DNA of 64,000 nucleotides from Chiloscyllium plagiosum (taxonomy: Eukaryota). Under the pieces are notes generated by a model. That model did not search any database. It worked only from the letters and a program-made list of their open reading frames with translations, and was not told the DNA's origin. Below are positions 5,116-58,939 of the stretch, piece after piece. Every line of letters starts with the position of its first letter. Position 1 is the first letter of the stretch. A program made the position numbers and the translations under genes. The stretch lies in assembly GCF_004010195.1 (NCBI RefSeq), contig NC_057713.1:92531147-92595146 (forward strand), given 5' to 3'.

Positions 5116-7987
5116 ATCTCAGCAAACCCTGTGAACAGGGACCACTGAACTACCTGCCAAGTCTTTCCCTTCCCCTGTACTCATGGTTTTTCCATGTCTG
5201 CATCTGTCGCTATGTTTGTGTACAGAATTTTCTTAAATGGGGTAAGAGTTTTAACCAGAGTTACATGCCATCCATTCAAACTTATTAATCTCTATCTGTA
5301 TAGTGCCTATTTATTTATAAATGAGTACATATTCTTGTTAAGTACAGAGACCTGCCCCATGCTTTCTGTCAACCATGTTCTTTAAAGACAGGTACCTGGG
5401 GGATTTCTGTCTAATTTTAAAACACTTAACCTCTGTGATGACTCTGGGAATGGAGGAGCTTGATTTTCAATGCACTACCCCTGCGAGGCATAACACCTCC
5501 AATCATGACTTCTGGCCAGAGTCTCGCCATGATCCCAGGTCTTTAGTAGGTGTATTTCCTTCAGCAGCTATTGCCTCCCTGGTGATGCTGGAGAGCAACA
5601 CAGCTGCCAGTTTCTGATATGTCAGCAGTTCTTAGTGGGTGCAATTTTAAGCAGCCTGCACATAAACATTTATGCTCACATTCTTCAATTATTTCCAGAC
5701 CTGTTTTTTTTTTCAAAAACAAGTGGACTGTCAGCCAAGATGCAGTGTAACTTTTGCAGGTGATGGGGAGACACTGATTCCTCTCACTCTGTCTCAGAGT
5801 AGTGTCCACCACATAACTTTCTCTATTCAGTGTTTGCAGTAGTGGATGCCAAGAGGAAATAGCTTCTTTCTAATGGAAGTTTGGCAAATATTGAGTCTTT
5901 GCACACAAGATAAGCCTTTCAAGTAGTTTTACATCCAAAAAGCCATTAAAAGTTTTTATTCTCCCCAGAAGTACACAGTTGTATTTTAACCTTTATTTTA
6001 ATGTCAACAGGGTGTAAAGAATCAGTTCTGGAATCAGGGTAATATCTTGTTCACTGCTGACTTGCAGGAGCCACTGTGAAAAATAGCGTTTTCAAAGGCT
6101 GCCCAAGGGATTTAAACTGCAAAAATCAGGGATGCATGCCAAAAGCAGCAAACAGCATGGCTTTCCCCATCCTGCTTGGCTGGTTACTGTTCATTACTGA
6201 CATCCGTCGCCATAGATCACATTTCACCACTGTAACAAATTTCATATGGAGTCTGATTAAAAGTCAGAAGCACCATAGAAATATAGTCAACTCACCCGGC
6301 AAGACTTTTTGCAAACATCAAATTAAGGATGAGAGAACAGTTGTCCATTTCCATAGCGTCGTGCATGACCACAAAGTGCTTCACCACTATAGGAATCACA
6401 TTTTAAAATGTAGTCACTGCCACAATGCAGGAGAGCAGGGCAGCCAATTTGCCCACAGCAAATATCCCATGATAGAATGAGACTTATGACCAGCTATAAC
6501 TATTACTGTGATATTGGTAGATGAATGAGCATTTCATGCTACACACACTTCTTAAACATTAAGGTTGTAAAGTAGTAAGTAATCACCACTTAGTAATCAG
6601 GCCGATCATCCCTTTCAAAAGAAGGATTCCTCAGAATGTGAATGAGAAAGATTGTGCTTCCTCTCTGCAGGTACTTCTGAACAGTTCTACACAAAGTAAA
6701 TATATCTAAATTTTGCTTCATGAATGTCATTTACTGAAAAAGGTCAGGGGAAACTCTCACTGCAGGACTCTAGTGGACCATTTATTCAAAGTAGGTAGAG
6801 ACGTCAATCATAAATCAGCAACTTTTTTTTATCATGCTTCAATATAAATTCTCTCTATTTTCCTTTTATCTGGCCAGTGATCTACTCCTAAAATTTTAAC
6901 AAAATATGACTTTCGATAACATATATTTTCTGCCCCTAAGAATGGAAGTCTCTGTTGCATTTGGGGTGTATTCACACTCCTTTAAGTAGCAAAGACTTCT
7001 CTTTGACTCTTCTGCACACGTGTCAGCTGTATAGTTGCCTTAATTGAAGTTGGGAATCACTCAGAGCCAAGTACTACTTCAGGATTTATAAAACGTGGTA
7101 TCAAATGACAGCAAGCATATCTCTGTGGTAAGTAAATTGGTCGCACACACTTCTATCTAAGACAGCCAGACAGCAGTCTGCTGACTAGTGCAACCAAATT
7201 TTTCTTTTTTTTTCCTCTGGCACTAGTGGCTTAGGCATTTCTAGATTTTTCTTTTGAGCTTGCTGCAAACGTTCATTGTTTTCCGGAACCTACTTCCTGC
7301 CATATCTAAAATAACACCAGCTGCAGTGACTTGATAGAAAGGAATCCCATGGTAAATACACAGAGAGATGGGTGGGAAAATGCTACATTTTGGGGAACTG
7401 ATAGCATTCTATCGAATCAACTTTTTGAAAAAGATAACTTCCACTCAAATCAGTGTGACGCACAATGAAAGAAAACACAAAATTGTAGTATCACAGATAT
7501 TAATCCCAAATCATATCCACTAATCTGGCATTTCATATGTAATGGAGAGGTTAAGCAAAAAAGTTAACTTTTTTGTCTGGATTTTTCTATGCTGAGTGAT
7601 AATAACACTACTAGGGATGGTCTCCATCAAATTTGAATTAAATCTGAAAAGGTTAAATTGCCATTTCCTCCCAGCTCATAACAAGGTAAAAAAAAAAACT
7701 GGCTCAACTTCAGCTTTCCATTTCATCATCTTGAGAGAGGAGGGAAGAAAAGAACTTGTGTGTGAGTGAAGGTTTTGAAGCTTCAGTTTGGCTCAGTTCA
7801 CTGAACCACTGAAGTTTGGATAAATGTACGGCTGAAAGGTACTTTACCTGACTCCTTGCAACATTTAAAGCTCCAACATGAAATTTCCTTTCATTAATCA
7901 TGATGGAATGGAGAGAAAGAAGATGGAATTCCAATCTTCATATCCCTTTACTGTAGGCGTTGTTTGGGTAGGCTTATACCTAAGCAT

Positions 7988-8209
7988 GGAAATGTGTTGC
8001 TGGAAAAGCGCAGCAGGTCAGGCAGCATCCAGGGAACAGGAGAATCGACGTTTCGGGCATAAGCCCTTCTTCAGGAATGAAGAAGGGCTTATGCCCGAAA
8101 CGTCGATTCTCCTGTTCCCTGGATGCTGCCTGACCTGCTGCGCTTTTCCAGCAACACATTTCCAGCTCTGATCTCCAGCATCTGCAGACCTCACTTTCTC
8201 CTCAAAGAT
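7988..8209. mobile_element. Fold-back Penelope-like element fragment (inverted pLTR arms plus 3' tail) with hammerhead motif
   Basis: Arms 7988-8073 and 8078-8163 are reverse complements around a 4-nt loop. Unpaired tail 8164-8209. 14-bp direct repeat ttatacctaagcat at 7974-7987 and 8210-8223. Related to the pLTR next to the Penelope RT at 36.3-38 kb. Confidence 0.85.
8042..8078 (-). ncRNA. Minimal type I hammerhead ribozyme motif (Penelope-type)
   Basis: Minus-strand RNA: auuc CUGAAGA a GGGC uuau GCCC GAAA CGUC gauuc. Core intact, helix II present, palindromic ACGU helix III, predicted cleavage after GUC. Helix I is weak. Confidence 0.7.
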
Positions 8210-8239
8210 TTATACCTAAGCATCCAGAGTTAATTAAAA

Positions 8240-9420
8240 AATTTATTGAACCAAAGAGGTTACAGTACAGAAGGGGGCATTGGGCCCATTGAATCTGTGT
8301 CAGCTGACTACAAGTATAATCCAGTTAGACCCACTTCTTTGGCTTTTACCTGTGGCAACATAATTTTTTTTCTCTTTTGAATTCCTTTTTAAAAGGCCTG
8401 ACTGAATCTTTCTCTAATACACCATTAGGTAGTGCATTCCAGAATACAACCACTTGATGCACTGAAAAAAAAAGTCTTTGGGATCACTAATTTTCTTGCC
8501 AATCAGCATAAGTCTGTGACTTCTGGTTCTCAACTCTTTGCAAAGGGGACAGTTATTTCTTTGCTGCTCAGTCTAGGCCCATGATTGAAGAAAGACTTGC
8601 ATTCATATTACACTTTTCATAACCACTGGATGTCTCAAAGTGTTTTACAGCCAATTAAATACTTTTGAAGTGTTGCATGATAGAAAATGCAGCCGTCAGT
8701 TTGCAGCCAGTAAGCTCATACTAACAGCAACATGTTGACAATCTTTTTGTGATTAAGGATTAAATATTGATTAGGACATTGGAGTTAAATGCCCTGATTC
8801 TTCTTCAAAATAGTGCCATAGGATATTTTATGTTGACCTGAGAGGCTAGATGGGTACTCAGTTTAACAGCTCAGGTGAGAGATGACACCTCAGATACTGC
8901 AATACTCCTTCTGCACTGAGCTGCAGAACCATCATGATTTTTGTGCTCAAGGCCTGCAATGAGACTTAAACTCACAACGCTCTGACTCAGGCGAAACATC
9001 TATTTACTTAGTCGTGGCAAACACCAATTTTGATGAGTTGAACATACTATCAAATCTCCTTTCAATTTCTTTGTTCAAACAAGCCTCAAATCCTCCTACC
9101 TACCTGCAATAAGTAAGTCCCTCATCTTGAATCATTCTCGTCAATCTTTTGTGCACCCTCTCCAAAGTCTTTACATCCTTTCTAAATTATGGTGCCCATA
9201 ATTGAACACCATACTCCAGTTGTGGCTCGGCCAATGTTTTATAAGGGATCATTTTGAGTTACTTGGTATCATACACTATACCTCTATTCAGGATGCTGTC
9301 TGCTTGCTTTTTTAACTTATCCTTTACCTGCCCTGCCAGGTTCAATGATTTGTGCTTACATATCTCTTTGGACTTTCTGTTCCATCAGCCTCTATGGAAT
9401 TGTAATCTTTATTTTATATT
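8240..9420 (-). mobile_element. Degenerate CR1 LINE 3' region, split by a Deu-domain SINE
   Basis: CR1 3'UTR (gggcattgggcccattgaatctgtg) and RT C-terminal motifs (tgcaccctctccaaag, aattgaacaccatactccagttgtgg) continue on both sides of 8588-9013. Confidence 0.65.
8588..9013 (-). mobile_element. Deu-domain SINE (SacSINE1/AmnSINE-related)
   Basis: 3' end aaagacttgcattcatattacacttttcat, Deu-like core (ttcttcaaaatagtgccataggatattttatgttgacctgagagg), tRNA-like head near 8960-9010. Confidence 0.7.
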
Positions 9421-9584
9421 TTAGTTTACATTTCCCTCTTTGCTTTGCAGATTGAATTTTTCATCTTTAAAACTGGTTCTTTTCATTTCAATAATTAAAT
9501 GGCCCTATTTCTAAAAAAGTAAGCAATACTAGGTGCAAATTTAGAACCTATCCTCATTAGCTATCCTGCTTTTTGAGAATAATA

Positions 9585-11190
9585 CCATAAGACATAGGAG
9601 TAGAAATGGACCATTAGAATCAGAGGTCTGCAGCACACATAAAGGCCCTTTGGTGCATCAAGTCTGCACCAGTCAAAAACAACCTAACTATTCTAATCCC
9701 ATTTTCCAGTACGTGGCCTTTTCTTTGTGTGCCTTGGCATTGCAAGTACACACCTAAATATTTCTTAAATGTTATGAGGGTTTCTGAGACTGCCATCCTT
9801 ACAGCCAGTGAAATTAATTTCCATCGTCCTCTGGGTGAAAAAAGTTTCTTCGCATTCTCTCTAAATCTCCTGTCTCTTATATTAGGAATAGTTAGAAATA
9901 TTAGAAATCTATGTACCCATTTATTGATCCCTCCATCAAGGGGAGATGTTATTTCCTACCTACCAAATCTTTGCTTCTTATAATTTTATCCACCAATCAA
10001 TGGCATCAAAGAACAAAGAACAAAGAAAATTTACAGCCCAGGAACAGGCCCTTCGGCCTTCCAAGCCTGAGCCAATCCAAATCCACTGTCTAAACCTATC
10101 ATCCAATTCCTAAGGATCTGTATCCCCCTGCTCCCCACCTACTCATGCATCTGTCCAGACGCACCTTAAATGAATCTACCATGTCTGCCTCTACTACCTC
10201 TGCTGGCAACACATTTCAGGCACCTACCACCCTCTGTGTAAAGTATTTGCCGCGTACATCCCCTTTAAACTTTTCACCTCTCACCTTGAAAAACCCTGAT
10301 ATGATTCATCAATTCTACTTTCAAGCCTTATCTTCATAACCCTTGATCCCCTCACTGATTAAAAATCTGTCTATCTCAACCTTAAATACACTTAACTAAC
10401 CAACCTCAACAATCCTCTGCAGCAAATAATTCCACAGATTCACTAATCTCTGAAAAAAGAAATGTCTCATTTCAGTCTTAAGTATGTGATCCCTAACTCT
10501 GAGATTTTGGCCCCTGGTCATAGATTTCTCCTGTCAAGACCTGAAGAATTTTTATGTTTCAATTTGGTCACCTCTCATTTTTCTAAAATCCAATGAATAC
10601 AAGCCCAACCTAATCGACCTCTCCTCATAAGAAAATCCTTCCATACTCAGAACAAATCTAGTGAGCCTTCTCTCGACTGCCTCCAATGTCAATATATCTT
10701 TCCTTAGATAAGGGGACCAAAACTGTTCATAGTATTCCAGCTGTGGTCTGATAAGTCTCTTGTATAGCTTTAGGAAGTCTTCCCCATTGCTATATTCCAT
10801 TTCTGTTGAAATGAAGACCAATAGTCCTTTTGCCATCCCTACTACCTGCTGAATTTGTATGTTAGCCATTTTGTGATTCACGCGTGAGAATCCCAAATCT
10901 CTCAGTGTATTGGATTTCTACAATCCTTTTCCATTTAAACAATATTCAGCTTTTATACTTCTCCTGCCAAAGTGCATAACCCCACATTTTCCCCAGTCTA
11001 TATTCCATCTGCCAAATTTCTCCCAGTCACTCAACCTGTCTATAGCCCCCTATAAACTCTGTGTCTCCTCACTATTTACTTCCCACCTACATCTGTGTCA
11101 TCCACAAATTTAACAATAGTATGTTCACTTCTGTCACCATTGTAAATAATTGTGATCTCAGCATTGAACCCTGTGGCACTCCACTCAGTC
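9585..11190 (-). mobile_element. Nested CR1 LINEs: an RT-bearing copy (9585-9615 plus about 10290-11190) containing two further CR1 3' ends (about 9620-9990 and 10008-10290)
   Basis: ORF 10552-10896 LYKRLIRPQLEYYEQFWSPYLRKDILTLEAVERRLTR; GVPQGS and KFVDDT RT motifs near 11085-11190; separate tails (cataagacatagga, aaagaacaaagaacaaagaa). Confidence 0.8.
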
Positions 11191-11394
11191 GCAAGATTCT
11201 GCCATGGGTCTTAATGTTATTGACAAGAATGATTCTTGACTTGTAGAGCTTTGGACACATGATGGAGGTGTCCAATAAGGAAGTAGGATCTGCAGTGCAG
11301 GACGTGTTTGCATTTCTTTCCCATTCTGACTCATCATTAAGACATCTGTACACAAAGCATATGATAGCTTAATAGGCAAGTCACTATTTTGATT

Positions 11395-11660
11395 GACTAA
11401 TAGCAAATCCCTCCCAATCTTTAATGCCAGTCTCTGGTATTCTGGCCAAAATGTATCCCTCATTCAACATGATTTAAAAAACAAACAGATTATCTGGTCA
11501 TTATTACATTTCAGTTTTTGGGAGCTTGCTATGTGCAAATTGGTTATGAAGTTTCCTAAAATATAATGGTGACAACACTTCACAAGTACTTCTTTAGCTG
11601 TAAGGCACTTCAAGATATCCAGTAATCCTAAACGGCACCACATAAATGCAAATCTTACTT
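11395..11660 (+). mobile_element. Deu-domain SINE 3' half
   Basis: cagattatctggtcattattacatt...gggagcttgctatgtgcaaattgg...cataaatgcaaatct matches other copies in the window. Confidence 0.6.
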
Positions 11661-12124
11661 GCTTTCTCCACACATCTTAATGGCCCATTCTGTTGCATTT
11701 TTTTTGAAGTATCATGCCATGTATTTTATTTTTATTCATATGACATGGGTGGTCTAAATGTTGTGCTGAAACATCCTGAGGAACTCAGCACATGTTGCTT
11801 GCAGCTGTTTATACCAAACAAAGCTTCATATCAATAATATGAAGTATCAGATCTTACAATTAAACAAGTATCATAATTGTTAATTTGAAATCAGATTCTA
11901 GTTTAAAGAGTTCAAAGGTAAGTATTTTTGAATTTTTTTCTAGCTAATTTAGAGATGGCATGAAATTATTTTTATATTTTATGCTAGTAGTTGTTCTGTT
12001 GGTGGTATCTTGATATAAATATTTAAGAGGATACAGGACAATTAGTCTTGTGGTGGAGTGGGTGAGCTCCCCACCTCTAAGCCAGAAGCTTCAGATTCGA
12101 GTCAAACCCAATGTTTCCATCCTA

Positions 12125-13800
12125 CATAGGGGAGTGGTAGCAGCCAGAGCCAGGTGCATGGCACCATGGTAGTTTGCCTGTACAGTAGGGTACATGGAGA
12201 GACTGGAAGAATAACAACAACAAGAGGTTCAATAGTTTTGGGAACAGATGGGCACTTTGATGGCCACAGACATGAATCCAGAATGGTGTATTGCTTTCCT
12301 GGTGCCACTGTCAAGGATGTCCCTGCTAAGCATCCAGAATTGGAAGGATGAACAACCAGCAGTCAAGGTCCACACAAGTACAAACAACATATGCTGAAAA
12401 AGGCATGTGGCCCTGCAATCACAGTTTATGGACATAGATGAGAAATGAGCAAGGAACTCCTCCAGATTAGGACCTCAAGATTACTTCTGGTACTATACAG
12501 AGTTGACTATAGATAAAGCAGATGAATATGAGTCTGGAAAGATGGTGCAGGAGGGAGGGTTCTGAATACTTTGGACATTGGGAACAGCTCTGGAGAAAAA
12601 GGAACTGACAAAGGCGGAACAGTTTGCACTGAAGCAGAGTAAGGATTGAGGTCTTTGTGTAGTGGTTTGCTAAGGTTATTGAGGTAAATTTAAATTAACA
12701 TGGCATGAGTGTGTGATCCATTAGATTATACCAGAGAGGAAAACTAAGGTGCACAAAATACTTTGGGAGATAGATACCACTAGAACCTGAAATTTTAAAG
12801 TTAATAGATGGGGTCAGAGGAAGGGTGAAAGCAACAAAGTCTAAATCAGCATTACTGTGTACTTATGTGAATACATGGATGTAGGAAATTAGATCAGTTA
12901 ATTATAGGCACAGTTATCAGGTAGAAATTCAATGTTGTGGTTATAGCAGAGATCTGGCTCAAAGAAGGATGGGATGTTGTGAAATATTCCTGGATACAAG
13001 GTGCTCAGGTGGTAAAGGAAAGGAGGAAAAGAGGGAAAGATGGCAGTATTAAGTATGGGCAGCACAGTGGTGCTGGAGGAAGAGAGATGTCAAAGAAAAA
13101 TCAAAGACAGAATCGATTTGGCTTCAATTAATGAACATAAAAGATGCAGTTACATGGCTCAATGTTGTCTATAGGTCAGAAACTAGTGGAAATGATGAAG
13201 GGGTACAAATGCACAAAGAAATTAGAGGGGTACAAAAATTCAATGGAAGATAATGGGGAACTTTAATTCTCCGAATATAGACTGGGATAGTAGCAGTAGT
13301 GTAAAGGGTAGTGAAGGACAAAGGCTCCTAGTGCGTGTTCAGGGAAATTTTCGTTAGCACTATGTTTTCAGTCCAATGAGAAAGGCGGCATTGCTAGGCC
13401 TGGAATAGGGTGGACCAAGAAGATCAAGTCTCAGTGGGAGAATATTTGGGGGACAGTGATCATTATATCATAAGATTTAAGCTAACCATGGAAAAAGACA
13501 AAAAGCAGTCTTCCACAGAGCTGAAGATGGTGCCAGAAGACTGGAAAATTGCACACATTACACTCTTGTTCAAAAAAAAAGTGAAATGTTAAGCCTAGCA
13601 ACTGCAGAAGACCCATTTTAACTTTGGTTATATGTAAAGTTCTACAAAGAATAATTTGGCACAAAATTAATATTCACATGAACAAATGGAGTGTGATTTA
13701 AAAGAAAACAGTGGATTTCTTCAGAGTAAATCATACTTAACTAACTTGCTGGAGTTCCTGAAGAAGTAGCAGAGAGGAATGGTAAGGATAATACTGTTTA
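12125..13800 (+). pseudogene. Degenerate CR1 LINE 5' region: ORF1 esterase (SGNH-like), endonuclease and RT N-terminal remnants
   Basis: SRMVYCFPGATVKDV and VHTSTNN (ORF1), VVIAEIWLKEG, IMGNFNSPNIDW and YLGDSDH (endonuclease), VPEDWKIAHITLLFKK (RT N-terminus); many disruptions. Confidence 0.8.
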
Positions 13801-14559
13801 TCAGCTGCCATGACTAAAATTAGACTTTGGAGTCCTGGTGCCTGGAACTTGAATGTGGAAATTAGACATAAAAGCATTGTCCCTTCTCAGTGCACTTTTC
13901 TATGATAGCCAGGGCACTCCTTTGTAGAGCTGAGGTACCCAGTGGATATGGTCCCTTGGCATGAAATGTCACGAACCCTTTCAGTGGGTGGCTTCTCTCT
14001 GGGACCATTAACTGTAGAGCAAACTGTGCATTAAAGGTGCATGATTGCTTTGGAACTGTTCAACTAGTCAAGATGTGTCCATTACAGTTAATTTGACCAG
14101 AAATTTCAAAAAGTGTTTTTATGAATGACAATTCTTTTCTTAGTCCAGTGTTGTTTGTAATAAAGAGCTTTATGCAATAGAACTACATTTTTTTCACCTA
14201 GCTATATAGGTACTTGTGAATACTCTATAATTTGGCATGCTAGTTGAAGGGGCATATGATAATGAGGAAGTAGGCACTAAATTGGCATGACAATGTGAGG
14301 GGCAATTGGCATGGTGTAACATAGGTGATATGATGGGCTACAAAGGATGAGCAGAGAGAATTAGGTTGCATGGCATGGGCTGAGAAGAAGTGAGGGGGTT
14401 GTGAGGGGTGAGGACTGGAGGAGAGTTTCATAATTCTTCCCTTTAGGAGAGACAAGGTATTCCTTTGGATTTGGACCCATGACACTTTTGGTGTAGATAA
14501 GGCACATTTTGTGAGTATACGGTACATTAACTTGTTGACACTGCCAAAGTTTTAAAAAA

Positions 14560-14885
14560 ATTCTTTCATGAAATTGGGCATCACTGGCAAGTCCAGCATT
14601 TGTTTCTGGGAGGCCATTGCAAAATGAAGTGAAGAGTCACCCACACTACAGTGGGTCTGGACTTACATGTCAGATGGCTGATTTCCTTCCCTGAATGAAC
14701 CAGTTGATTTTTTACAACAATCACCATTACTAAAGCGAAATGCAGTAGCTTTCAATTCCAGTTTATTGATTTAATTGAAATTTCACCAGCTATAGTGATG
14801 GATTTTGAACACACATCCCCAGAGTATTAACCTGGCCCTCTGGATTACCATTCTAGTGACATATCACTGTGCCACCTTCTCCCCC
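14560..14885 (-). mobile_element. tRNA-derived SINE of the family at 54123-54447
   Basis: gtgggtctggacttacatgtcag...atttccttccctgaa...ggattttgaacaca...ctctggatta; homologous to the 54.1 kb and 34.8 kb copies. Confidence 0.6.
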
Positions 14886-16596
14886 TACTGTCAAATAACT
14901 GTTCAAGAATACGTAGAACTTTAAAGAAAGAAAATGTTATGCATTCCAGAGTACCTGTCGACATAAAATCATTATGGGGTTTGTACTACATGATTGACTT
15001 CCTAAACTGCCATTTTACGATGCAATACCTATCAAGTGAGCATTTTGATTGGCAGCTTCAATTGTGCGTTGATCAGACATTTTTGTTTATGCAAGGAATT
15101 AGTTAAAGTAATTTCAATGTTTTGAAGTTATCTTGTCACCAAAGGGAGAGTTTTTTTCCAAAAATCTGCACATCTCCTGAGCTTTGCCAATGGTGGCTGC
15201 TTGGAAATGAGATGATGAGGGTGGTGGGTAGGGAGGTGCGTGTTGGAATGAGGTAATAAGGGGTCATGAAGATGGCTGGACACATAGAATGACGCAGGGG
15301 TAATGGTGGGACCATGGGGATAGGTTTAGAGTTGACTGGATGAGGACTAGGGAGTGAATGGAGTGGGGGTGGTGGTGGGGAGAAAGACGGATGCTTATTT
15401 TTACACTTTGACCACAATGCTACAGCTTCAAATCAGGCTTTCCTCCCAGGCTGTGTGGGGACCTGCAGCCTCTAAGGTTCTTCTCAGATCGCCCAGCCCA
15501 ACTCCAAATCCAGCTTAGCCACTCTACCCCCTGACTAAATCGCATAGGTGGCTATTTTTAAGGGTCAGTTCTGTGAAGCTGGGATTTCTCCCACCTCTAC
15601 ACACCTGACCAAGGAACAAAGACTGGGGCCAGTATCGTACAACAGGCTTGAGAGTTGCTTTCCCTGTTAATTTTCCTGACATTGTTGGGACTTTACAAGG
15701 TCTGTAGACTGAATAGCTTCCCCCTGTGCTGTAACAATGCTGCAATGATTCTGCACCATGATGGCCAAGGAAGGCACATTCATCAGCTTGTAAACATTTC
15801 TTACAAAAAGCAATGATAGACAGTAAGATTTGGGGAGATTCCAGGCAGCCATGCGATAAGAGTAAAGTTGGAGCATCCCCAAACACTGACCATAGTTCCA
15901 GAATACACCATGCACGTACAAGTACTTGTTGCCACAGCAACTTGGTCTTCCTGAATGAAATGCAATACAGGAATGATTTCAGTCACCAAAATCACAAGAT
16001 CTCCAACACAGATTTAGGAACAGAAGCACCACACACTAAGAGAGAGATTTGAACCCTCTCTGGTGGGAACCAGGCAATAATGGGGTTACATTAGGTATCA
16101 GTGCTGTCATTATTTTTCCCACAAGGCATCTTCTGAGCAGCCACAGTATCCCAGGATCCTGTTCAACTTTTATTGGTGCAACATGAACTGCTGATGCTAC
16201 ACTCAGTAAGAATTGGCAGTGAGACAGAAGAAACTCAAAAAGGCAGGTGTCAAAATAACTGTGGACCTGGTGGAAATAAGGCTCTTTTACAACAGTAATA
16301 TGGAGCACTGGTGAATCTCTACTTTCTTACCAACTTCCCTCAAAATTGTATCCCTGCCCCAGGATCCCTACCTCCATGCTGACCAGTGTTATACCAGTGC
16401 CAATGAGTTACAGTGGTGCACTTCTGCAGTTTCCATACCTGCTTGATGGCATGATAGTGAGACACTACCTCAAAGTGATTCAAACTTTCCACTAGTACAA
16501 TCAGTAACCAACCAACACACACTGTTCAATAGTTAAAATCTACCTTCATTTCCGAATCCTTTAACAGTTTACCAAGAAGGCTTGCTTTTAATGATG

Positions 16597-16822
16597 CTGG
16601 AAATGTGTTGCTGGAAAAGTGCAGCAGGTCAGGCAGCATCCAAGGAACAGGAGAATCGACGTTTCGGGCATAAGCCCTTCTTCAGGCTTATGCCCTTCCT
16701 GAAGAAGGGCTTATGCCCGAAACATCGATTCTCCTGTTCCCTGGATGCTGCTTGACCTGCTGCGCTTTTCCAGCAACACATTTCCAGCTCTGATCTCCAG
16801 CATCTGCAGACCTTACTTTCTC
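16597..16822. mobile_element. Fold-back Penelope-like fragment with hammerhead motifs in both arms
   Basis: Inverted arms about 16597-16686 and 16698-16787, tail to 16822. 16-bp direct repeat cttgcttttaatgatg at 16581-16596 and 16823-16838. Same family as 7988-8209. Confidence 0.85.
16653..16686 (-). ncRNA. Minimal hammerhead ribozyme motif
   Basis: Minus strand c CUGAAGA a GGGC uuau GCCC GAAA CGUC gauuc. The plus-strand arm has GAAACAUC instead. Confidence 0.6.
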
Positions 16823-17094
16823 CTTGCTTTTAATGATGTCATATAGAATTAGACATTAGTAGATCGGCATTAATTCCAACCTAGTTACAACCAAACAAGA
16901 ATATGAACACAAAAATTACAGATGGTTATTAATCAGAACTTGATGAATGGGATACTGATGGTTCCAAAATCAAACAATTAATATTAAACTGGTGTGAGAA
17001 GTCTATTAATTCTTAAATTGGGGATTAAGATAACCATTTTAGTACAGAATCTCAGATAATGCAGCAGGACTGAAATTCAGAAGTTCCCAGCTGT

Positions 17095-17548: not shown

Positions 17549-17689
17549 ATTCATTTTACATGCTGGAGAATGAAGCATCCTAACAATGACAGCAAAAAGG
17601 ACATTAAGATGTGACAGATTCTCAGAGGCTAAAGTCACAACTTTTTTTTCTTTTCCTCCGAGCTTTCACTGCCAATTCACACATGAATT

Positions 17690-29999: not shown

Positions 30000-30200
30000 T
30001 TAGAAAGTAATAAGGGTATGGAATGCTTTGCCTGCAATGGTAGTAGATTCACCAACTTTAAGTACATTTAAGTTGTCATTGGACAAGTATATGGACGTAC
30101 ATGGAATAGTGTATGTTAGATGGGCTTCAAATTGGTATGACAGGTCGGCGCAACATCGAGGACCGAAGGGCCTGTACTGCGCTGTAATGTTCTATGTTCT
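30000..30200 (+). mobile_element. CR1 LINE 3' end
   Basis: VIRVWNALPAMVVDSPTLSTFKLSLDKYM; ggaccgaagggcctgtactgcgctgtaatgttctatgttcta tail. Confidence 0.8.
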
Positions 30201-35175: not shown

Positions 35176-36346
35176 CCACACCCTGCAAAAAATGCTGTTC
35201 TCCTCTCAACAAGAAAGTCTGATTAGAAAACCTTTTGCATTATCTGGATTTTTGTATTTGCAGTTGGGACCAAAAATGCATCAAGGTTAGAGAGAAAACA
35301 TCAGCATTCAGGCCGATAGTGTAGGTTACTGCAAATATATCATTTTGTAGCATAATACAATGAAGATTTAGGGATTTAGTTTTACTCATGTTCTTAACTC
35401 TAATCTTGAGGTGTTTGCGGAGCATGAGATGATGACAGTAGTTGTCAGGGATGTCACTAAGGTCCTGCCAACCAGTCGTCCCATGGAGATGTGGAAACAT
35501 TATCAAAGTAAAATTCCCCTTTGAATTCATAAGCTACTTAGATATTCCTTAAAACCTATAGCTGACTAAAAAAAATTTGATTGCCAGTCTTAATATTTCC
35601 TTATGTGACTTACTGTCAAACTTTGCTTGGTAATTCTCTGGCAAAGTGCCTTGGGATGATATATTAATGCAAATGCTGTTGTTGCACTTTGTTTACAAAG
35701 TTTTAAAAATATTTTTCCTTTAAAATGTGGCTCAGGTGATACTGGCTAGGGGAGCTATTGCAGCAAATTCCTCTCCCTACTCAAGGAAGGTAATACAGAT
35801 GGAAGTTGGACAAGGTTACGATCAGGATGACTCCCATATAGTTTGATGAGTCAGAACAAAAATTCTTCACTGCTGCTAATCTCAAGGACTCTCTGTTGGA
35901 TCAGAACTTCAAGATTAAATTTTAAACAAAGCATTGTAGTGGAGCATAGGATGGGTTAATCTTAACTGCAGGGTTGATGTTGTAACTTAAGATAACTGAG
36001 CCAAGCCACTGAACTGTAGGCTGGCCACTGCACACAAACTCACTGAATTCTTGTTGCATAGTCAGGACCAATGAGTCTCCCCTAAAAGAAGTCAGCTAGA
36101 AATACCAGTAAAACCATAAAATCCGACACAAAACTATCCATCAAACTCAACTTGGCTTTAAATTTTAAAAATTACAATATTACTGAAAAACTGTGTGTTA
36201 CACTGTTGTCCACATTCTCATTAGTGAAAACTAAAGAAATTGCCTTTCAAATTTTGTAAGTAAAATTGTCTTATTGCTGCATCTGAAATTGAGCTGGTTC
36301 ACTGATCCTACATTGGTAGTACCTGGGCTAAATTAAAGGGAATTAT

Positions 36347-36640
36347 GGATTAGTGGTGGTGGAAGAGCACAGCAGTTCAGGCAGCATCCAAGGAGCTTCA
36401 AAATCGACATTTCGGGCAAAAGCCCTTCATCAGGAATAAAGGCAGTGAGCTTGAAGCGTGGAGAGATAAGCTAGAGGAGGGTGGGGGGGGGAGAAAGTAG
36501 CATAGATCCCCACCCCCACCCTCCTCTAGCTTATCTCTCCACGCTTCAAGCTCACTGCCTTTATTCCTGATGAAGGGCTTTTGCCCGAAATGTCGATTTT
36601 GAAGCTCCTTGGATGCTGCCTGAACTGCTGTGCTCTTCCA
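36347..36640. mobile_element. Penelope pLTR fold-back with perfect 128-nt arms, abutting an assembly gap
   Basis: 36360-36487 is the exact reverse complement of 36513-36640; each arm carries CUGAUGA a GGGC uuuu GCCC GAAA UGUC. Confidence 0.75.
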
Positions 36641-37079: not shown

Positions 37080-37972
37080 GGTCTGAGGGCGGGGGTGCGG
37101 GATGTGGATGAGATGCGTTGGAGGGCATCTTTGACCACGTGGGAAGGGAAATTGCGGTCTCTAAAGAAGGAGGCCATCTGGTGTGTTCTATGGTGGAACC
37201 GCTCCTCCTGGGAGCAGATACGGCGGAGGAATTGGGAATACGGGATGGCATTTTTGCAAGAGGTAGGGTGGGAAGAGGTGTAATCCAGGTAGCTGTGGGA
37301 GTCGGTGGGTTTGTAGAAAATGTCAGTGTCAAGTCGGTCGTCACTGATGGAGATGGAGAGGTCCAGGAAGGGGAGCCAGGTGTCGGAGATGGTCCAGGTA
37401 AATTTAAGGTCAGGGTGGAATGTGTTGGTGAAGTTGATGAATTGCTCACCCTCCTCGCGGGAGCACGAGGTGGCGCCAATGCAGTCATCAATGTAGCGGA
37501 GGAAGAGGTGGGGAGTGGTGCTGGTGTAATTACGGAAGATCAACTGCTCTACATAGCCAACAAAGATACAGGCATAGCTGGGGCCCATACGTGTGCTCAT
37601 GGCTACCCCTTTGGTCTGGAGGAAGTGGGAGGATTCGAAGGAGAAATTGTTAAGGGTGAGGACCAGTTCGGCCAAACGAATGAGAGTGTCGGTGGAAGGG
37701 TACTGTTGGGGACGTCTGGAGAGGAAAAACCGGAGGGCTTGGAGGCCCTGGTCATGGCGGATGGAAGTGTAGAGGGATTGGATATTCATGGTGAAGATGA
37801 GGCGTTGGGGGCCGGGGAAACGGAAGTCTTGGAGGAGGTGGAGAGCGTTAGTGGTGTCTTGAACGTATGTGGGGAGTTCCTGGACTAGGGGGATAGGACA
37901 GTGTCGAGGTAGGTGGAGATGAGTTCAGTGGGGCAGGAGCATGCTGAGACAATGGGTCGGCCAGGGTGGTCA
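37080..37972 (-). pseudogene. Penelope-like element reverse transcriptase (5'-truncated, probably inactive)
   Basis: GRPIVSACSCPTE...IFTMNIQSLYTSI...QTKGVAMSTRMGPSYA...LRYIDD...LPFLDL...YKPTDSHSYLDYTSSHP are Penelope/telomerase-like RT motifs. The expected motif-A Asp reads Asn (MNIQ). Confidence 0.92.
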
Positions 37973-43935: not shown

Positions 43936-44150
43936 ACTCATCAGTCGGATGAGCCAGATACTTGGAATGCAAAGCTCCATAATACACACCAAGTCCTGTA
44001 ATGGAAAAACGGCAAGCCATTTGTTGAGAGATTAAGCGTACCTCACAGGGACCTGTACAGAAATAATTTCTAGAAACTGACATTGTCTGGGATGAGGTAC
44101 AGTCGCCAGACAAAAGCAGGATGGAGTGAATGTGGCTAAATTCACTCTAG

Positions 44151-44372
44151 ATTCTGGATTAGTGGTGCTGGAAAAGCACAGCAGTTCAGGCAGCATCCGA
44201 GGAGCAGTAAAACCGACATTTCGGGCAAAAGCCCATCACCTGTATTCCTGATGAAGGGCTTTTGCCCGAAATGTCGATTTTATTGCTCCTTGGATGCTGC
44301 CTGCACTGCTGTGCTTTTCCAGCACCACTAATCCAGAATCTGGCTTCCAGCATCTGCAGTCATTGTTTTTAC
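44151..44372. mobile_element. Fold-back Penelope-like fragment with hammerhead motif
   Basis: Inverted arms about 44151-44234 and 44256-44339; plus-strand CUGAUGA a GGGC uuuu GCCC GAAA UGUC at about 44248-44275; tail to 44372; 15-bp direct repeat ctaaattcactctag at 44136-44150 and 44373-44387. Confidence 0.85.
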
Positions 44373-44506
44373 CTAAATTCACTCTAGGCCTCAAATTCTC
44401 AATCTGCCCAGCACCACCTCCACAGGGTCCTGGCACTAAGTGGCCTGACAGGTTGGACTCCTACAAGATGGTCAAGGGCCTAATGTGCTTTTCAGGTCCA
44501 AACTGG

Positions 44507-46425: not shown

Positions 46426-47118
46426 CGTCATCAAGATACAACTGATCCAGTTCTTGAGGCTCCTGCTTCACTGTAATTTGCAAGGGAGTCAAATCCTGAC
46501 TGTTTTCCTGGTGCACTGGCAACATCATTGATTGGCTAGATTGAGATCCATTTCGTGGAGGCTTCGGAGCTTGCTGCTGTTGACCCATGGCTGCTGAGTT
46601 AGTGGGGCTGAAGGGCTGCACATAAGCAGCCTCTGGGGAAGCAGACGGGCCTTGTGGAGAAAGATTGTTGGGGTACAGAGTTTGCTGGAAACCATGGGAA
46701 CAGCTGCTGTTCAGATGCTGACTCATCTGGGGCTGCATCATAACGTGTGCTGAGTGAGTGGGTGAACTTGGATGCACAACAACAGATCTATGCACTTCTT
46801 GGATAGTGGGCACTGTTGCTCCAGACTGCTGGTGACTGAGCTGAGCACTGGTAGGGCTGCTGACACATTTGGTATAAGAGATGGGTGTAATTTCATGCTG
46901 TTTGTGACCTGAAGTAGGGGAAGACGACAACCCAGTGCTTCGCTGCTGACAAGAGGGAAAACTACTTACAAGGCAAGAACCAGGATCCGGTGTCATTTCA
47001 GGTGTCATGACCTGTTGGGAGTAGTAAGATTGGGACACTGGGTTCATCCCTTGATTAAGCGATCCGTAGACCAAGGCAGGTTCGTAGTCATCGGTGGGTT
47101 CTGTTTTTATAACAGGAA
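46426..47118 (-). CDS. NFATC1: Internal coding exon (693 nt, phase 1-1) of nuclear factor of activated T-cells c1; equivalent to the human penultimate exon (exon 9) encoding the C-terminal transactivation region
   Basis: Translation (V)PVIKTEPTDDYEPALVYG...YYSQQ...PDPGSCLVSSFPSCQQRST...ITVKQEPQELDQLYLDD closely matches recalled human NFATc1 VPIIKTEPTDDYEPAP...YYSQQ...PDPSSCLVAGFPPCPQRST...VTVKREPEELDQLYLDD. Acceptor: polypyrimidine tttttttctctctccccc-AG (AG = 47120-47119). Donor: GAC G/GTAAGT (intron starts 46425). Length divisible by 3. Confidence 0.95.
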
Positions 47119-50409: not shown

Positions 50410-51700
50410 GAAACATGGAACAGTACAGCAGAAAAGAAAAGCATTAAGCACAGGAGAGCTGTCCAACTCAACCCACTCCCTTGTTCTCACCCCCATGACC
50501 CTGTAAAAGTTTCCTTTCTAACATTTGTCAAATGCCCTTTTGATTAATAATCAATCTGCTTCAAACACTCTAAGGCAGTGATTTCCCAGATCACAACTTA
50601 TTGAATAAAAACTTCTCTCTCTCTTCTGGCTTCCTTCACTTATTCTAAGTCAGTGTCCTTTAGTATCAAGTTTTTTACCATTGTAAGCAGTTGCAACTTA
50701 GTTATGATGAGGAGATGCCGGAGTTGGACTCAGCGGACAAGATCAAAAATCAGACAACACCAGTCTATAGTCAAACAGGTTTATTTGCAACTTAATTACT
50801 TTCACATAACTCTTCTAGATCTGAACAATTCAACTGAATCTCTCTTTTGCCTTTTCTGCTTTAAGGAGACAATCACAGTTTCTTAAGTCTCCCCACAGAA
50901 TGGTTACCAATTAAGTAAATCCCCTCACTACACTCTCTAAAGCCTTTAAATTCCATTTCAAAGTGTGGTTACTTCCAAAATATGGGATACAATACTTCAG
51001 ATGGGATCTAACCAGTGTTTGATAACTTCATAACTTCCTTGTTTTTATACTGTATGTTGCTATTTATAAAATCATGAATCCTATATGCCTTTGTTCAAAT
51101 GGATGGATATGGGCCGGGTGCTGGCAGGTGGGACTAGATTGGGTTGGGATATCTGGTCGGCATGATGGATTGGACCGAAGGGTTTGTTTCCATGCTGTAC
51201 ATCTCTATGATTCTAATTGTCTACATGCATGTTCAGATCATGCACCTCCTTTGAAATTGCACCAATTCACTTATATTTCTTCTATTCAATCTTCCCACTA
51301 AAAGCAATCACCTCAACCTCCCTCGTATTACATTTCATCTGGCATGTTGTCCACCCATGTCATCAGTCTATCTTTGCTCTCCTAAAGTCTGTTACTATTT
51401 TTCCCCTCATTGTTCCATGTTCGTTGCAAACTTTGAATTATGCCCTAGTCCAGTTTATTTAGAGACTTTCCTCCAGTCTAGGAAACAAATATTCACCACT
51501 ACTCTCTGCTTTCTGTCCCTTAGCCAATTGCATATTTGCACAGCCACTGACTACTCCTTGAATCTCAGGCTTCAATTTTGCTAATTAGTCTATTATGTGG
51601 TATTTATCAAACACCTTTTGAAAGCTAATAGATACAACATCAAAAGCACTACCTTTAGCCACTTTCTGCCATGATATCAAAATAGTTCAATCCTGCACTC
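50410..51700 (-). mobile_element. Degenerate CR1 LINE, with a Penelope tail fragment (about 50705-50790) and a plus-strand HER1 tail (about 51100-51215) inserted
   Basis: CR1 3'UTR at 50410-50600 and RT motifs (atcaaacaccttttgaaagctaatagatacaacatc); the inserts match 57540-57630 and 43020-43130 respectively. Confidence 0.55.
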
Positions 51701-55845: not shown

Positions 55846-56764
55846 TAATTAAAGAAGATATGTTTTAAAACTCCACCCATCTCTGGCAGAGTCCCAGTGA
55901 CTACTGTCAGATATCTCTAGATGTCCCCTTACCCTCTCAATAGCTTCCACAAAACCAACATAATCAAAGATTTACATTATGGTCATTCCAGACAACACAG
56001 TAACTCAAAATGTGCATCTGCTTTCCTGATAAATGGTTGGGACCACATTGTGAACATCAACAGCTCTGGTCTGACTTTACATAAGACCCAATGTTGAATT
56101 TTGTATCGGCATTTCCAGTGCAGTGTTAACATTGGCCCCTGTACCCTATCAGCATTAGGGTGGTAAAAACAGCTGGCCTGCACTGTCCAGCTCTAACCCC
56201 AAAGACATGGAAGGCCATGCTTTTGAGGATTTGAAGTTGTCATATAAAAATTCTGGGGGTGTATAAACATCAACATAAAAGACTATTTTAAAACATAGTT
56301 TAAATATGTCATTCTGAAACATTATATTTTAAGGTCTTTTAAAACATACCCTCTTTTGTACTTTAGAAAATTCAGTTATTACAAAAAATACATTTAAATT
56401 CTTTTAAGGCAATTTGAATGAATTCATTGATATTCAGTTGAGCAATTTCATTAATACATTCTGTTAATTGGGCATTTTTGATGTTCTTTGTGATTTTTCA
56501 TTGGTAATTTATATGTTATTTCTCAATATTTTGATTTGTGCATCCTTATCACTTCAGTTTTGGATATTACTTCAAACCTGTCTTGAATGTATGAGCTTTA
56601 TAAATTATTTTAGAGGATGTGGGCACCACTGACATAAAGGGATACAATGAAAACATACAACAGTTCTATGGGCCAGGATGAATTAAAAATCTGTGCAAGA
56701 GCTGCTGCTAATTACACACTTTTACGTTGTTGTGGTTCTGTTCGCCGAGCTGGGAGTTTGTGTT

Positions 56765-56804
56765 GCAGACGTTTCATCCCCTGTCTAGGTGACATCCTCA
56801 GTGC
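56765..56804 (-). ncRNA. Minimal hammerhead motif, opposite-strand twin of 57182-57221
   Basis: Minus strand GCA CUGAGGA uGUCaCCUagacAGGgGAU GAAA CGUC UGC (G-U instead of G-C at the base of helix II). Confidence 0.68.
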
Positions 56805-57181
56805 TTGGGAGCCTCCTGTGAAGCGCTTTTGTGATGTTTCCTCCGGCATTTATAGTGGTTTGAATCTGCCGCTTCCGGTTGTTAGTTCCAGCTGTCCGTT
56901 ACAGTGGTCGGTATATTGGGTCCAGGTCGATGTGCTTATTGAGTGAATCTGTGGATGAGTGCCATGCCTCTAGGAAATCCCTGGAGTGTTGTCCTAGTCG
57001 AATTCAGAGAACAGCCAGGGAATTCCTAGAGGCATGGCACTCATCCACAGATTCACTCAATAAGCACATCGACCTGGACCCAATATCCCGACCACTGCAA
57101 CGGACAGCTGGAACTGACAACCGGAAGCGGCAGATTCAAACCACTACAAATGCCAGAGGAAACATCACAGAAGGCTCCCAA

Positions 57182-57221
57182 GCACTGAGGATGTCACCTA
57201 GACAGGGGACGAAACGTCTGC
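57182..57221 (+). ncRNA. Minimal type I hammerhead ribozyme motif
   Basis: GCA CUGAGGA u GUC a CCU agac AGG g GAC GAAA CGUC UGC: helix I GCA/UGC, helix II, intact core, predicted cleavage after C57218. Confidence 0.78.
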
Positions 57222-57435
57222 CACACAAATTCCCAGCTCGGCGAACAGAACCACAACGAGCACCAAGCTACAAATCTTCTCACAAACCTTTATACACTTT
57301 TACCCTAAGCATTTTGAGCTAATTCTATTGTCTTCATAATATTCAACAAATATTTCTCGTCCTGCCACATAAGGCAACTGCATTTGGGAAGCCAACTTGC
57401 TTTACTTGCACTTAAAACAACGGATGTAATTAAAG

Positions 57436-57632
57436 TTAAAAATCGCACAACACCAGGTTATAGTCCAACAGGTTTAATTGGAAGCACACTAGCTTTTGGA
57501 GCGACACTCCTTCATAAGGAGCGTCGCTCCGAAAGCTAGTGTACTTCCAATTAAACCTGTTGGACTATAACCTGGTGTTGTGAGATTTTTAACTTTGTAC
57601 ACCCCAGTCCAACACCAGCATCTCTGAATCAT
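57436..57632. mobile_element. Fold-back Penelope-like fragment (third family), hammerhead truncated at the fold-back point
   Basis: Arms about 57432-57512 and 57516-57596; aGGAGC guc GCUCC GAAA GCUA gug retained but CUGAUGA lost; tail to 57632; 13-bp TSD gatgtaattaaag at 57423-57435 and 57633-57645. Confidence 0.82.
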
Positions 57633-58939
57633 GATGTAATTAAAGATATGCAACAGAGCGTCATCAAATCATTAAACCCCACTTTTACTTCAGATTCATT
57701 TAAGTTTTTTTTCTTTTGCTGAGCAGTTATCTCGATTCTATGCAAACAAAAGTCAAATAATTTTTTGGCCCAGACTTGTGAGGCTAGTGCGTGATGGATT
57801 CCATTCTCATATGCTTTCCTTTAATACTAACAGTGAAATTAGTTAAAATTTTCTGTGGGCTGCTGCAAGGGATGATCAATCCCCGCCCTCTGCCCCCAAC
57901 CCCATTTTTAATCCAGTTGAACCATATTGTGATTTTAGAAACTGAGTTGATGCTGACTGAAGGACGAAGTTTAGCACGTTTAAGGTGTATTGAAGAGAGA
58001 TTTTTTAAACAGTACAGCTCTTGATTCTGTCTGCAAGTGAGTCATTAAATGTCACCAAGAAACCTTGTAATAATAAAAATAGAAGATAATAAAGGCATAA
58101 ATACTAACAATAGCATAAATACTAATTAAGAATAGGCATTAGTTATATTCTTAGTTCAAATCCTGTTCAATCCATTTCCCAGTTCCAGATTTTGTGTCTT
58201 TCTCGACACAGGACCTGGTTCCCATCATCTCCACACAACTCCAGCAGGCGACACATCAAGCAGTCCACATTCAGACAGGGATAAGATCATCGCTATAGCT
58301 GTTAGAGGTTTGGAGCCTAAACTCTGGCTCCACATTACTGTGGGAGTTGAGATGAAAAGGAGAGTATGAAACATGTAGAATAAAGGAAAAGGGAGAGAAA
58401 CCAGACAAGTGATGTGGTGGTGGCGTGTTAGAGATCACTCAGGGAATCAGAGTTGCTGTGGCAACATGCACTTTTACATGTAAGCCCTAGCTTGAGCTAT
58501 GGATAATGATAATAGATGTACCAATATTCTTTCCATCAGATAGATGACCAGAAATTTTTCCCACACTTATCGCCTGCCAGTGGCACATATGGGAAGGATT
58601 TGCAGTTTGATACTCACCTTCCTTGGTTATCAAGTTCAACGGTAGGACCTTACACCAAATCTACTGGCTCAGAGGCAGGAATGCTACTCATTGCAGCCAA
58701 AGGCCATTTAAAGGACATAAAAGGTAACAAACATAAACGTGAAGAAATACAGAATGAGAACTAGAAACAAAAAATGTGTGCGATTCAAGTAAGGAATGAA
58801 ACTTACATAAGGAAAGACTTACAAAATTGGAGAAAGAGTGCCAGACAGTAGAAGGAGTACATGTGAGACAAAGCAGCCGAATAAGAGAGTACAAAAATAA
58901 ATAAATTATGAAAGAGCAATTGGGATTAGGAATTCTAGA

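What the first reader, a model, noticed from the sequence alone, without database searches (positions are those of the whole stretch)
7974..57645. Recurrent fold-back Penelope insertions from three families, each built on a hammerhead ribozyme, with one-sided tails and 13-16-bp TSDs
Seen: five complete elements (7988-8209, 16597-16822, 44151-44372, 56726-57289, 57436-57632) share one architecture: TSD, inverted arm, short loop, sense arm, unpaired 30-45-nt tail, TSD. The TSDs are 14, 16, 15, 14 and 13 bp with unrelated sequences. A sixth (36347-36640) lies beside Penelope RT and runs into a gap. The elements come from at least three families with unrelated primary sequence but the same CUGANGA-helix II-GAAA-palindrome-UH layout. 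Established: Penelope-like elements carry minimal hammerheads in their pLTRs and often have inverted 5' pLTRs. Inference: these look like MITEs but are independent retro-insertion products, since the two same-family copies (8 kb, 16.6 kb) differ in loop and tail end. The density of ribozyme hairpins with such clean long TSDs suggests a reproducible insertion mechanism.
Basis: partly seen in the sequence, partly recalled or inferred. Interest (0 to 1): 0.8.

Follow-up and report, generated by a model that had tools for sequence, protein, structure and literature searches.

The report
Twin run-off Penelope hairpin insertions
These short hairpin-shaped insertions are real pieces of Penelope-type jumping genes in a layout already known for that class, but their ends suggest each was made by two reverse-transcription events, one from each cut DNA strand, that ran off the capped start of the element's RNA, which is a testable answer to how such inverted copies form.

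Summary
The five elements are real. [quoted passage not shown] Inverted copy + one tail + TSD is published for PLEs, and this scan noted it twice before in this genome. Not every element keeps a hammerhead core (57.4 kb has none intact).

Added here, from 196 copies and genome-wide counts:
1. 28 of 29 resolvable hairpins have exactly one tail; outer ends fall in two classes about 35 nt apart, matching two published RT start sites.
2. The untailed arm is the longer in 53 of 90, which cDNA snap-back cannot give.
3. In A and D, arms stop at a sharp wall, an initiator-like A just 5' of the hammerhead, preceded by an untemplated G (64 of 100 rows; 13 and 17 at control positions). In L1 that is the mark of a copied RNA cap.

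Best model: both staggered nicks prime cDNA, one per start site; both run off the capped 5' end and join by microhomology. C shows no wall. Not found in my literature searches; inferred from DNA only.

The parts
7974..7987 (.). left TSD, element 1 (14 bp)
   Evidence: exact repeat of 8210-8223
7988..8077 (-). family A inverted, tail-less arm; reaches about -5 (0 = C3 of CUGANGA); intact hammerhead core with C3 at 8074
8078..8209 (+). family A sense arm starting at +1 (C3 lost), with tail 8165-8209
8210..8223 (.). right TSD, element 1
   Evidence: junction also on contigs of X15 and X17
16581..16596 (.). left TSD, element 2 (16 bp)
16597..16686 (-). family A inverted arm, reaches -1
16687..16695 (.). 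9-nt filler that repeats hammerhead helix II sequence
16696..16822 (+). family A sense arm from -3, hammerhead C3 at 16699, tail 16789-16822
16823..16838 (.). right TSD, element 2
36342..36506 (-). family B inverted, tail-less arm (+92 to -74)
36507..36640 (+). family B sense arm from -60, cut by assembly gap 36641-37079; no TSD seen
37080..37924 (-). 5'-truncated RT of the family B element; link to the hairpin unresolved
   Evidence: (RVT_1, E 0.0015, below cut-off)
44136..44150 (.). left TSD, element 3 (15 bp)
44151..44238 (-). family B inverted arm, stops near +4 to +8 (no core)
44239..44372 (+). family B sense arm from about -9, hammerhead C3 at 44248, tail 44342-44372
44373..44387 (.). 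right TSD, element 3
56712..56725 (.). left TSD, element 4 (14 bp with one mismatch, 10 exact)
56726..56984 (-). family C inverted arm to -183, hammerhead C3 at 56801
56985..57004 (.). about 20-nt filler at the joint
57005..57289 (+). family C sense arm from -193 with the endonuclease C-terminus, hammerhead C3 at 57185, tail 57258-57289
57290..57303 (.). right TSD, element 4
57423..57435 (.). left TSD, element 5 (13 bp)
57436..57515 (-). family D inverted arm; no intact CUGAUGA
57516..57632 (+). family D sense arm from +6, tail 57597-57632
57633..57645 (.). right TSD, element 5

Best explanation
Each hairpin is one PLE insertion made by twin target-primed reverse transcription. (1) The GIY-YIG endonuclease nicks both strands 12-16 nt apart, leaving two 3' overhangs that become the TSD (TSD shown; nicks inferred). 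(2) Each 3' end primes a cDNA inside the element RNA, one at the start site about +90 and one at about +126 from hammerhead C3. The gap between the sites is the one-sided tail (end classes shown; use as RT starts inferred from the anole PLE). (3) In families A and D, and probably B, the RNA is a capped transcript starting at an initiator-like A just 5' of the hammerhead (-4 in A/B, -8 in D). Each cDNA runs off this end after 95-135 nt, often copying the cap as an extra G (wall and G shown; cap inferred). (4) The two cDNA ends are joined head to head by microhomology or filler, so either arm can be the longer (shown; repair route inferred). If only one nick primes, a single short copy with the same TSD results. 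The hammerhead is carried along because it is the first thing in the RNA; it probably cannot fold in a hairpin transcript (inference).
For: Two end classes: of 56 chosen family-A copies, 27 end at +85 to +96 and 24 at +122 to +127; 5 are shorter. One tail in 28 of 30 fold-backs in an unselected 464 kb, both tails in 1, 1 cut by a gap (28/29 against 0.5, p 6e-8). Inverted arm longer 53, tailed arm longer 27, equal 10 of 90; in the less diverged half 23 against 6 of 39. Wall: of arms reaching C3, 57 of 73 A, 20 of 27 D and 8 of 23 B stop within -9..0, while only 3 of the remaining 16 A stop in the next 50 nt. Genome-wide, 6,412 A copies break at -4/-3, 6,114 at -5/-4, 1,130 at -7/-6, and 18,101 keep C at -5. 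Base before A(-4): G 64, A 19, T 17 of the first 100 rows (hand tally), against G 13/100 and 17/100 at control positions. After removing rows where element sequence or a duplicate explains the base: G 33, A 9, T 12 (p 2e-8 against 0.25). In 10 single copies with filler between TSD and element the filler ends in G in 9, and in 4 it is exactly one G. The unrelated family D repeats this at A(-8): G 17, A 3, T 0, or 8:3:0 after exclusions (hand tally; p 0.001). Microhomology of 2 nt or more in 30 of 44 direct joins against 12-17% by chance. Published: the anole PLE protein nicks and extends both strands, has two internal RT starts that define the tail, and is predicted to be a dimer (PMC11167929); D. 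virilis Penelope starts transcription inside the pLTR; an extra 5' G marks a copied cap in L1 (PMC11702581; PMC2912911).
Against: No RNA start was seen: run X19 showed no place where many molecules begin or end (only 2% of a poly(A) single-cell run was read). Family C has the same hairpins but no wall (0 of 37 stop in -9..0), so run-off is not needed for hairpin formation. The B wall is weaker (8/23) and its G was not tested at scale. In my first small sample the G excess was weak (A: G 7, A 5, T 4). In 7 of 16 single G copies with a TSD the G lies inside the TSD, so the target could supply it; an A precedes the G more often than expected, which a bare cap does not explain. 46 of 90 joints have filler, not microhomology, and the aligner can overstate microhomology. 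[quoted passage not shown] The sample comes mostly from the start of contig C1, and gaps hide long copies. One RNA against two RNAs of the same source cannot be told apart.
Confidence: 0.62

Rival explanations
1. Self-priming or snap-back: one cDNA (or an antisense template, as proposed by Arkhipova et al. 2013) folds back and copies itself to make the inverted arm; later deletions reshape the centre.
For: The two arms carry the same subfamily pattern, apart from isolated single-site differences (A: 4.2% apart within an element, 9.5% between elements). Microhomology and templated fillers occur at joints. In 27 of 90 the tailed arm is longer, as snap-back predicts. Proposed in PMC3846280.
Against: In 53 of 90 the untailed arm holds 5' sequence absent from the tailed arm while the tailed arm holds a tail absent from the other, so neither can be a copy of the other. 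This is strongest in the youngest half (23:6), against later deletion. The extra G lies at the 5' end of the sense RNA.
Confidence: 0.14
2. Twin priming is right, but the wall is not a capped start: RT stalls at the hammerhead, or the RNA end is made by splicing or cleavage, and the G is ordinary terminal addition or target microhomology.
For: The wall coincides with the 5' edge of helix I; in D. virilis the intron end maps there (PMC4209133). G is inside the TSD in 7 of 16 cases. A small excess of ends lies at the predicted cleavage site (10 in +27..+33 against 2-5 in five other 7-nt windows, of 157 ends).
Against: There is no AG acceptor before A(-4) in A or B, and upstream sequence differs from copy to copy. 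RT has already passed the hammerhead helices at the wall. The wall sits at a pyrimidine-A in both unrelated families, at different distances from C3 (-4, -8). G excess is absent 1 nt downstream and 2 nt upstream.
Confidence: 0.15
3. The hairpins or short copies are themselves the transcribed masters (SINE-like non-autonomous PLEs) and hairpins spread as units.
For: Short forms are very abundant (61,177 exact A tails). A few centres recur, one with the same 11-nt filler. Tail reads in one RNA run are strand-biased 607:190 and run on into varied flanks.
Against: 82 of 90 centres are distinct, and six of the seven recurrent ones are microhomology joins expected to arise repeatedly. The two elements with the same filler differ in tail status. 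Short single copies acting as masters is not excluded; hairpins moving as units is unlikely.
Confidence: 0.07
4. MITEs of a DNA transposon, or assembly artefacts.
For: Inverted arms, nearly fixed outer ends, high copy number; the assembly has many gaps at these repeats.
Against: Arms continue into RT/GIY-YIG ORFs; one-sided tail; variable centres; TSD length varies; single-arm copies have the same TSDs; junctions of element 1 occur in other DNA runs.
Confidence: 0.02

Closest known systems
Complex insertions of EN+ Penelope-like elements: inverted 5'-truncated copy, 30-40-bp tail at one end, TSD (PMC8557442; PMC3846280)
   Same: Head-to-head inverted pLTR, tail on one side, TSD, hammerhead in the pLTR, C-terminal GIY-YIG.
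   Different: Here most resolved copies are ORF-less, about 200 nt, with a sharp 5' wall and an extra G; TSDs are 12-16 bp against 8-10 bp in Adineta. The passages read call the mechanism undefined or propose self-priming.
PAc (Poseidon, Anolis carolinensis) in vitro TPRT (PMC11167929)
   Same: Both strands nicked and extended; two internal RT starts bracket the tail; hammerhead downstream of the pLTR boundary region; cleavage not needed.
   Different: The parts read do not explain inverted copies, TSD length or 5' ends. Their data show no strand difference in start site.
LINE-1 twin priming and cap-derived G (PMC2912911; PMC11702581)
   Same: Second nick primes a second cDNA; discrete 12-18-bp TSD; microhomology joint; extra G at full-length 5' ends.
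   Different: L1's two cDNAs cover adjacent, mostly non-overlapping RNA and start at poly(A) and at a microhomology. Here both cover the same 90 nt from two fixed internal starts, giving a palindrome.
Minus-strand strong-stop DNA of LTR retroelements (recalled, no call)
   Same: RT starts about 100-130 nt from the capped 5' end and runs off it.
   Different: There it is tRNA-primed, extrachromosomal and followed by strand transfer; here it is target-primed and fixed in the genome. A working analogy, not membership.
Minimal PLE hammerheads and animal retrozymes (PMC4209133; 10.64898/2026.07.22.740005)
   Same: CUGANGA, extra base between 9 and 10.1, G10.1-C11.1, palindromic 15.2-16.2, short helix I.
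   Different: Retrozymes are tandem direct repeats; these are head-to-head pairs, often with an incomplete core. Cleavage was not tested.

Membership tests
EN+ Penelope-like element | Arms are the 3' end of an RT + C-terminal GIY-YIG ORF | tested here: met
   B: RT to GIY-YIG to arm in L052. A, C: endonuclease C-terminus in the family consensus. D: GIY-YIG upstream in L186. RT itself was seen in cis only for B.
EN+ Penelope-like element | PLE-type RT placed by phylogeny or a PLE-specific profile | tested here: inconclusive
   Pfam RVT_1 E 0.0015, below cut-off; no PDB match; no tree built. The labels Neptune-like and Poseidon-like rest on recalled motifs and on a Cys-rich RT-EN linker seen in B DNA.
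EN+ Penelope-like element | Minimal hammerhead in the pLTR | tested here: met
   All four consensuses have the core, the extra base, G-C closing pair and a 4-nt palindrome as defined in PMC4209133. At least one arm reaches C3 in 74 of 90 fold-backs. Rfam had no hammerhead match.
EN+ Penelope-like element | Optional 30-40-nt tail at one end | tested here: met
   Inverted arms end mostly 28-46 nt short of the tail end; one tail in 28 of 30.
EN+ Penelope-like element | Variable TSD made on insertion | tested here: inconclusive
   56 of 90 fold-backs have an exact TSD, 50 of them 12-16 bp, all different. No empty site was seen, so duplication on insertion is inferred.
EN+ Penelope-like element | Full-length copy with tandem pLTRs | not tested
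   Long copies break at assembly gaps; no full-length element was recovered.
Hammerhead ribozyme | Self-cleavage | not testable with these tools
   Only a weak excess of ends at the predicted site (10 against 2-5).
MITE | TIRs at both termini, fixed TSD, fixed internal sequence, transposase partner | tested here: not met
   One-sided tail, TSD 9-17 bp, 82 centres in 90, partners encode RT/GIY-YIG.
L1-type twin priming (works like) | Two cDNAs from two nicks, discrete TSD, microhomology joint | tested here: met
   Either arm longer; microhomology 30 of 44; TSD modes 14-15 (A), 14 (B), 13-14 (C), 12 (D). Genomic signature only.
Capped Pol II template run-off | Capped 5' end at the wall | tested here: inconclusive
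   Extra G supports it; RNA reads showed no start pile-up.

The most novel reading that the evidence does not exclude
PLEs normally reverse-transcribe from both nicks at once, one protein subunit per internal start site near the 5' end of a capped RNA, making two 'strong-stop' cDNAs. Hairpins are the products in which both ran off and were joined. The same intermediate, with a jump or a start in the downstream pLTR, would explain tails, inverted pLTRs and pLTR regeneration in one scheme. Because priming is internal, any 130-nt run-off copy that keeps a promoter could act as a SINE-like master and fill the genome with some 10^5 ribozyme hairpins.
Probability: 0.35. Interest if true: 0.8.

Novelty: new variant of a known kind. 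Interest (0 to 1): 0.58.

Why it matters
How PLEs make their inverted and tailed insertions is described as undefined in the passages read (PMC8557442), and no mechanism for pLTR regeneration was evident (PMC2377424). This genome holds tens of thousands of frozen products (61,177 exact A tails; about one hairpin per 15 kb locally). They give numbers that the existing in vitro anole system can test directly: nick stagger, one start site per strand, RNA start, cap copying. They also warn annotators that these MITE- or miRNA-like hairpins are retroelement ends; Rfam's best matches were miRNA models below threshold. If the mechanism is wrong, what remains is an ordinary, very abundant PLE debris class.

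Tried and rejected
DNA search of G000 with the A arm found nothing because common words are skipped; patterns were used instead. Rfam and PDB gave no useful match. A Pfam check of the endonuclease frames returned no result because the frames hold stops, so those domains are read by eye and by tblastn. Empty-site test: laying three DNA runs and one RNA run on 7600-17100 was swamped by repeats; no skip with a single TSD was among the joints shown (15 of 888), which proves nothing. No indexed holder was on record as RNA. Chimeric arms from two subfamilies were looked for in 34 A fold-backs and no clear case was seen; AB/BA labels are probably intermediate subfamilies and were not followed up. A splice-acceptor explanation of the wall was rejected: no AG at the site. 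MFE folding does not form the hammerhead core in monomer or dimer, so structure is assigned by motif only. Dropped rows: 5 of 95 fold-back calls (low score or arm not reaching the 3' region); one double-tailed element (L198) is counted from both sides. Planned extra samples of B, C and D were not obtained, so those stay at 39, 34 and 31 copies. Literature searches: 'twin priming' + Penelope gave 3 unrelated papers; Penelope + 'untemplated G' + cap gave 0; searches listed nothing on a 5' wall or on shark PLE hairpins by title or abstract start.
Full report
OBSERVATION. All six inverted repeats exist with 94-100% arm complementarity. Four TSDs are exact at 14, 16, 15 and 13 bp; the 56.7-kb one is 14 bp with one mismatch; the 36.3-kb element runs into a gap. 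A (8.0, 16.6 kb) and B (36.3, 44.2 kb) are about 80% identical; C (56.7 kb) and D (57.4 kb) are unrelated to them. An intact hammerhead core is on both arms in three elements, on one arm in two, and on neither at 57.4 kb. Both junctions of the 8.0-kb element are on contigs of other DNA runs.

IDENTITY. The window RT had 76,175 first-look candidates in G000 (138 scored). Of the 12 loci returned, 9 carry the B arm downstream in the same orientation, six with the tail and three ending about 35 nt earlier. L052 reads RT, GIY-YIG, 3' UTR, hammerhead, tail. A and C consensuses encode endonuclease C-termini, and D follows a GIY-YIG in L186. The arms are therefore PLE 3' ends. The clade names Neptune-like (A, B, D) and Poseidon-like (C) are from recalled motifs. 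Exact tail patterns occur 61,177 (A), 19,452 (B), 4,835 (C) and 6,015 (D) times.

SAMPLE. 196 tail-anchored copies (A 92, B 39, C 34, D 31), mostly the first matches on contig C1, were parsed: 95 fold-backs (90 kept), 64 single, 25 at gaps, 12 long. In an unselected 464 kb around the window there are 30 fold-backs and 48 single arms. Positions below are relative to C3 of CUGANGA.

RESULT 1, TSD AND ENDS. 56 of 90 fold-backs have an exact TSD, 50 of them 12-16 bp. Modes are 14-15 (A), 14 (B), 13-14 (C) and 12 (D); these are maximal matches and may include 1-2 chance bases. Single copies have TSDs of similar length. 3' ends are bimodal: 27 of 56 at +85 to +96, 24 at +122 to +127, 5 shorter. 28 of 30 fold-backs have one tail, 1 has two and 1 is cut by a gap. 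Independent choice of site by each arm would give about half (p 6e-8).

RESULT 2, NEITHER ARM IS A COPY OF THE OTHER. The untailed arm reaches further 5' in 53 of 90, the tailed arm in 27, equal in 10. Snap-back of the tailed cDNA can only leave the tailed arm longer; snap-back of the untailed one cannot make a tail. The excess is 23:6 in the less diverged half and 15:15 in the more diverged half, so later deletion does not explain it. The arms share subfamily markers, so both come from one source. 30 of 44 direct joins have microhomology of 2 nt or more (chance 12-17%); 46 of 90 have filler. 82 of 90 centres are distinct.

RESULT 3, A WALL WITH AN EXTRA G. Of arms reaching C3, 57/73 (A), 20/27 (D), 8/23 (B) and 0/37 (C) stop within -9..0. 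Genome-wide, A copies break 6,412 times at -4/-3 and 6,114 times at -5/-4, but 1,130 times at -7/-6; 18,101 keep C at -5, and about four in five of the first 100 of these are long (hand tallies). The wall is the A of TCATTCC (TTATTCC in B), which fits the recalled initiator consensus. The base before it is G in 64 of the first 100 non-templated rows, against 13 and 17 at the two control positions. After removing rows explained by element sequence or duplication the count is G 33, A 9, T 12. I fetched 56 of these rows (35 G, 21 A/T). Of 16 single G copies with a TSD, 9 have the G outside the TSD (4 as one extra G) and 7 inside, 6 of them as a GA/GAT/GATT overlap with the element; only 1 A/T copy had filler. 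Family D repeats this at the A of TCCACAA (-8): G 17, A 3, T 0, or 8:3:0 after exclusions; only about 13 of 100 rows continue to -14 (hand tally). An extra 5' G is read as a copied cap in L1 and SVA. There is no AG acceptor at the wall, although an intron ends at this point of the hammerhead in D. virilis.

MECHANISM. Shown: TSD, two end classes, one tail per hairpin, either arm longer, wall, extra G, microhomology. From the literature: a PLE protein nicks and extends both strands, starts RT internally at two sites that define the tail, and is predicted to dimerise; Penelope's start site is inside the pLTR. Inferred: two nicks 12-16 nt apart each prime a cDNA, one per start site; both run off the capped RNA end; the ends anneal and are repaired. 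Long copies would arise by starting in the downstream pLTR or by a jump; I did not test which. C makes hairpins without a wall, so twin priming is the general step and run-off is family-specific. RNA evidence is thin: tail reads in one single-cell run are strand-biased 607:190, with no start pile-up.

COMPARISON. The layout is known: an inverted 5'-truncated copy and a 30-40-bp tail at one end (PMC8557442), with 8-10-bp TSDs in Adineta and self-priming proposed (PMC3846280). Two earlier notes of this scan on the same genome judged the pattern ordinary; none matched the mechanism words. The wall, the extra G and the twin-priming reading were not found in searches. What I saw: PMC11167929, parts 1-2 of 4 (abstract, results, part of methods; no figures; 3 supplement files searched with no hits); passages only of PMC8557442, PMC3846280, PMC8969392, PMC6155905, PMC2377424, PMC4209133, PMC2912911, PMC11702581 and 10.64898/2026.07.22.740005 (its supplements were not seen). 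[quoted passage not shown]

VERDICT. Real, PLE-derived, known in layout. The population anatomy supports a specific and testable mechanism (about 0.6) for a question the field calls open. New variant of a known kind; interest 0.58.

Noticed in passing
window 3189-3259 / 3492-3562: 71-bp inverted repeat, 99% complementary, 232 nt apart, with no TSD found and no other copy in 464 kb plus loci L042-L067; not PLE-derived. A local inverted duplication or an assembly feature.
   Followed up: partly
window 46379-47212 (-): 277-codon open frame with no Pfam match; its end resembles an NFATC1-type C-terminal exon (recalled, not tested), so the elements probably lie in introns.
   Followed up: partly
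window 21102-21195, 50704-50790, 58986-59017, 62999-63174: Single-arm copies of the same families; the first is tail-less and stops at the -4 wall.
   Followed up: partly
window 36342-37975: The RT is on the minus strand while the arm next to the gap is on the plus strand, and the 439-N gap is shorter than the roughly 1 kb from RT to tail in L052; either two insertions or a scaffolding join.
   Followed up: partly
L186 (G000:C1:21803798-21806830): A family-A fold-back with a 16-bp TSD (one mismatch) inserted into the 3' end of a family-D element.
   Followed up: partly
L111, L125: Two family-B copies begin exactly at the predicted hammerhead cleavage site (+28); 10 of 157 A/B ends lie in +27..+33 against 2-5 in other 7-nt windows. 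A minor class may be templated on cleaved RNA.
   Followed up: partly
L198, L162 and window-relative 146889-147096 (downstream stretch): Rare hairpins with tails on both arms; the two family-A ones had no TSD found and the D one only 9 bp.
   Followed up: no
window 10552-11463, 30004-30804, 42780-43209: Broken frames that look like CR1-type LINE 3' ends (recalled).
   Followed up: no
family C consensus, about -53 and -18 from C3: A TATA-like motif and a downstream initiator-like motif; three arm ends lie between -20 and -11.
   Followed up: no
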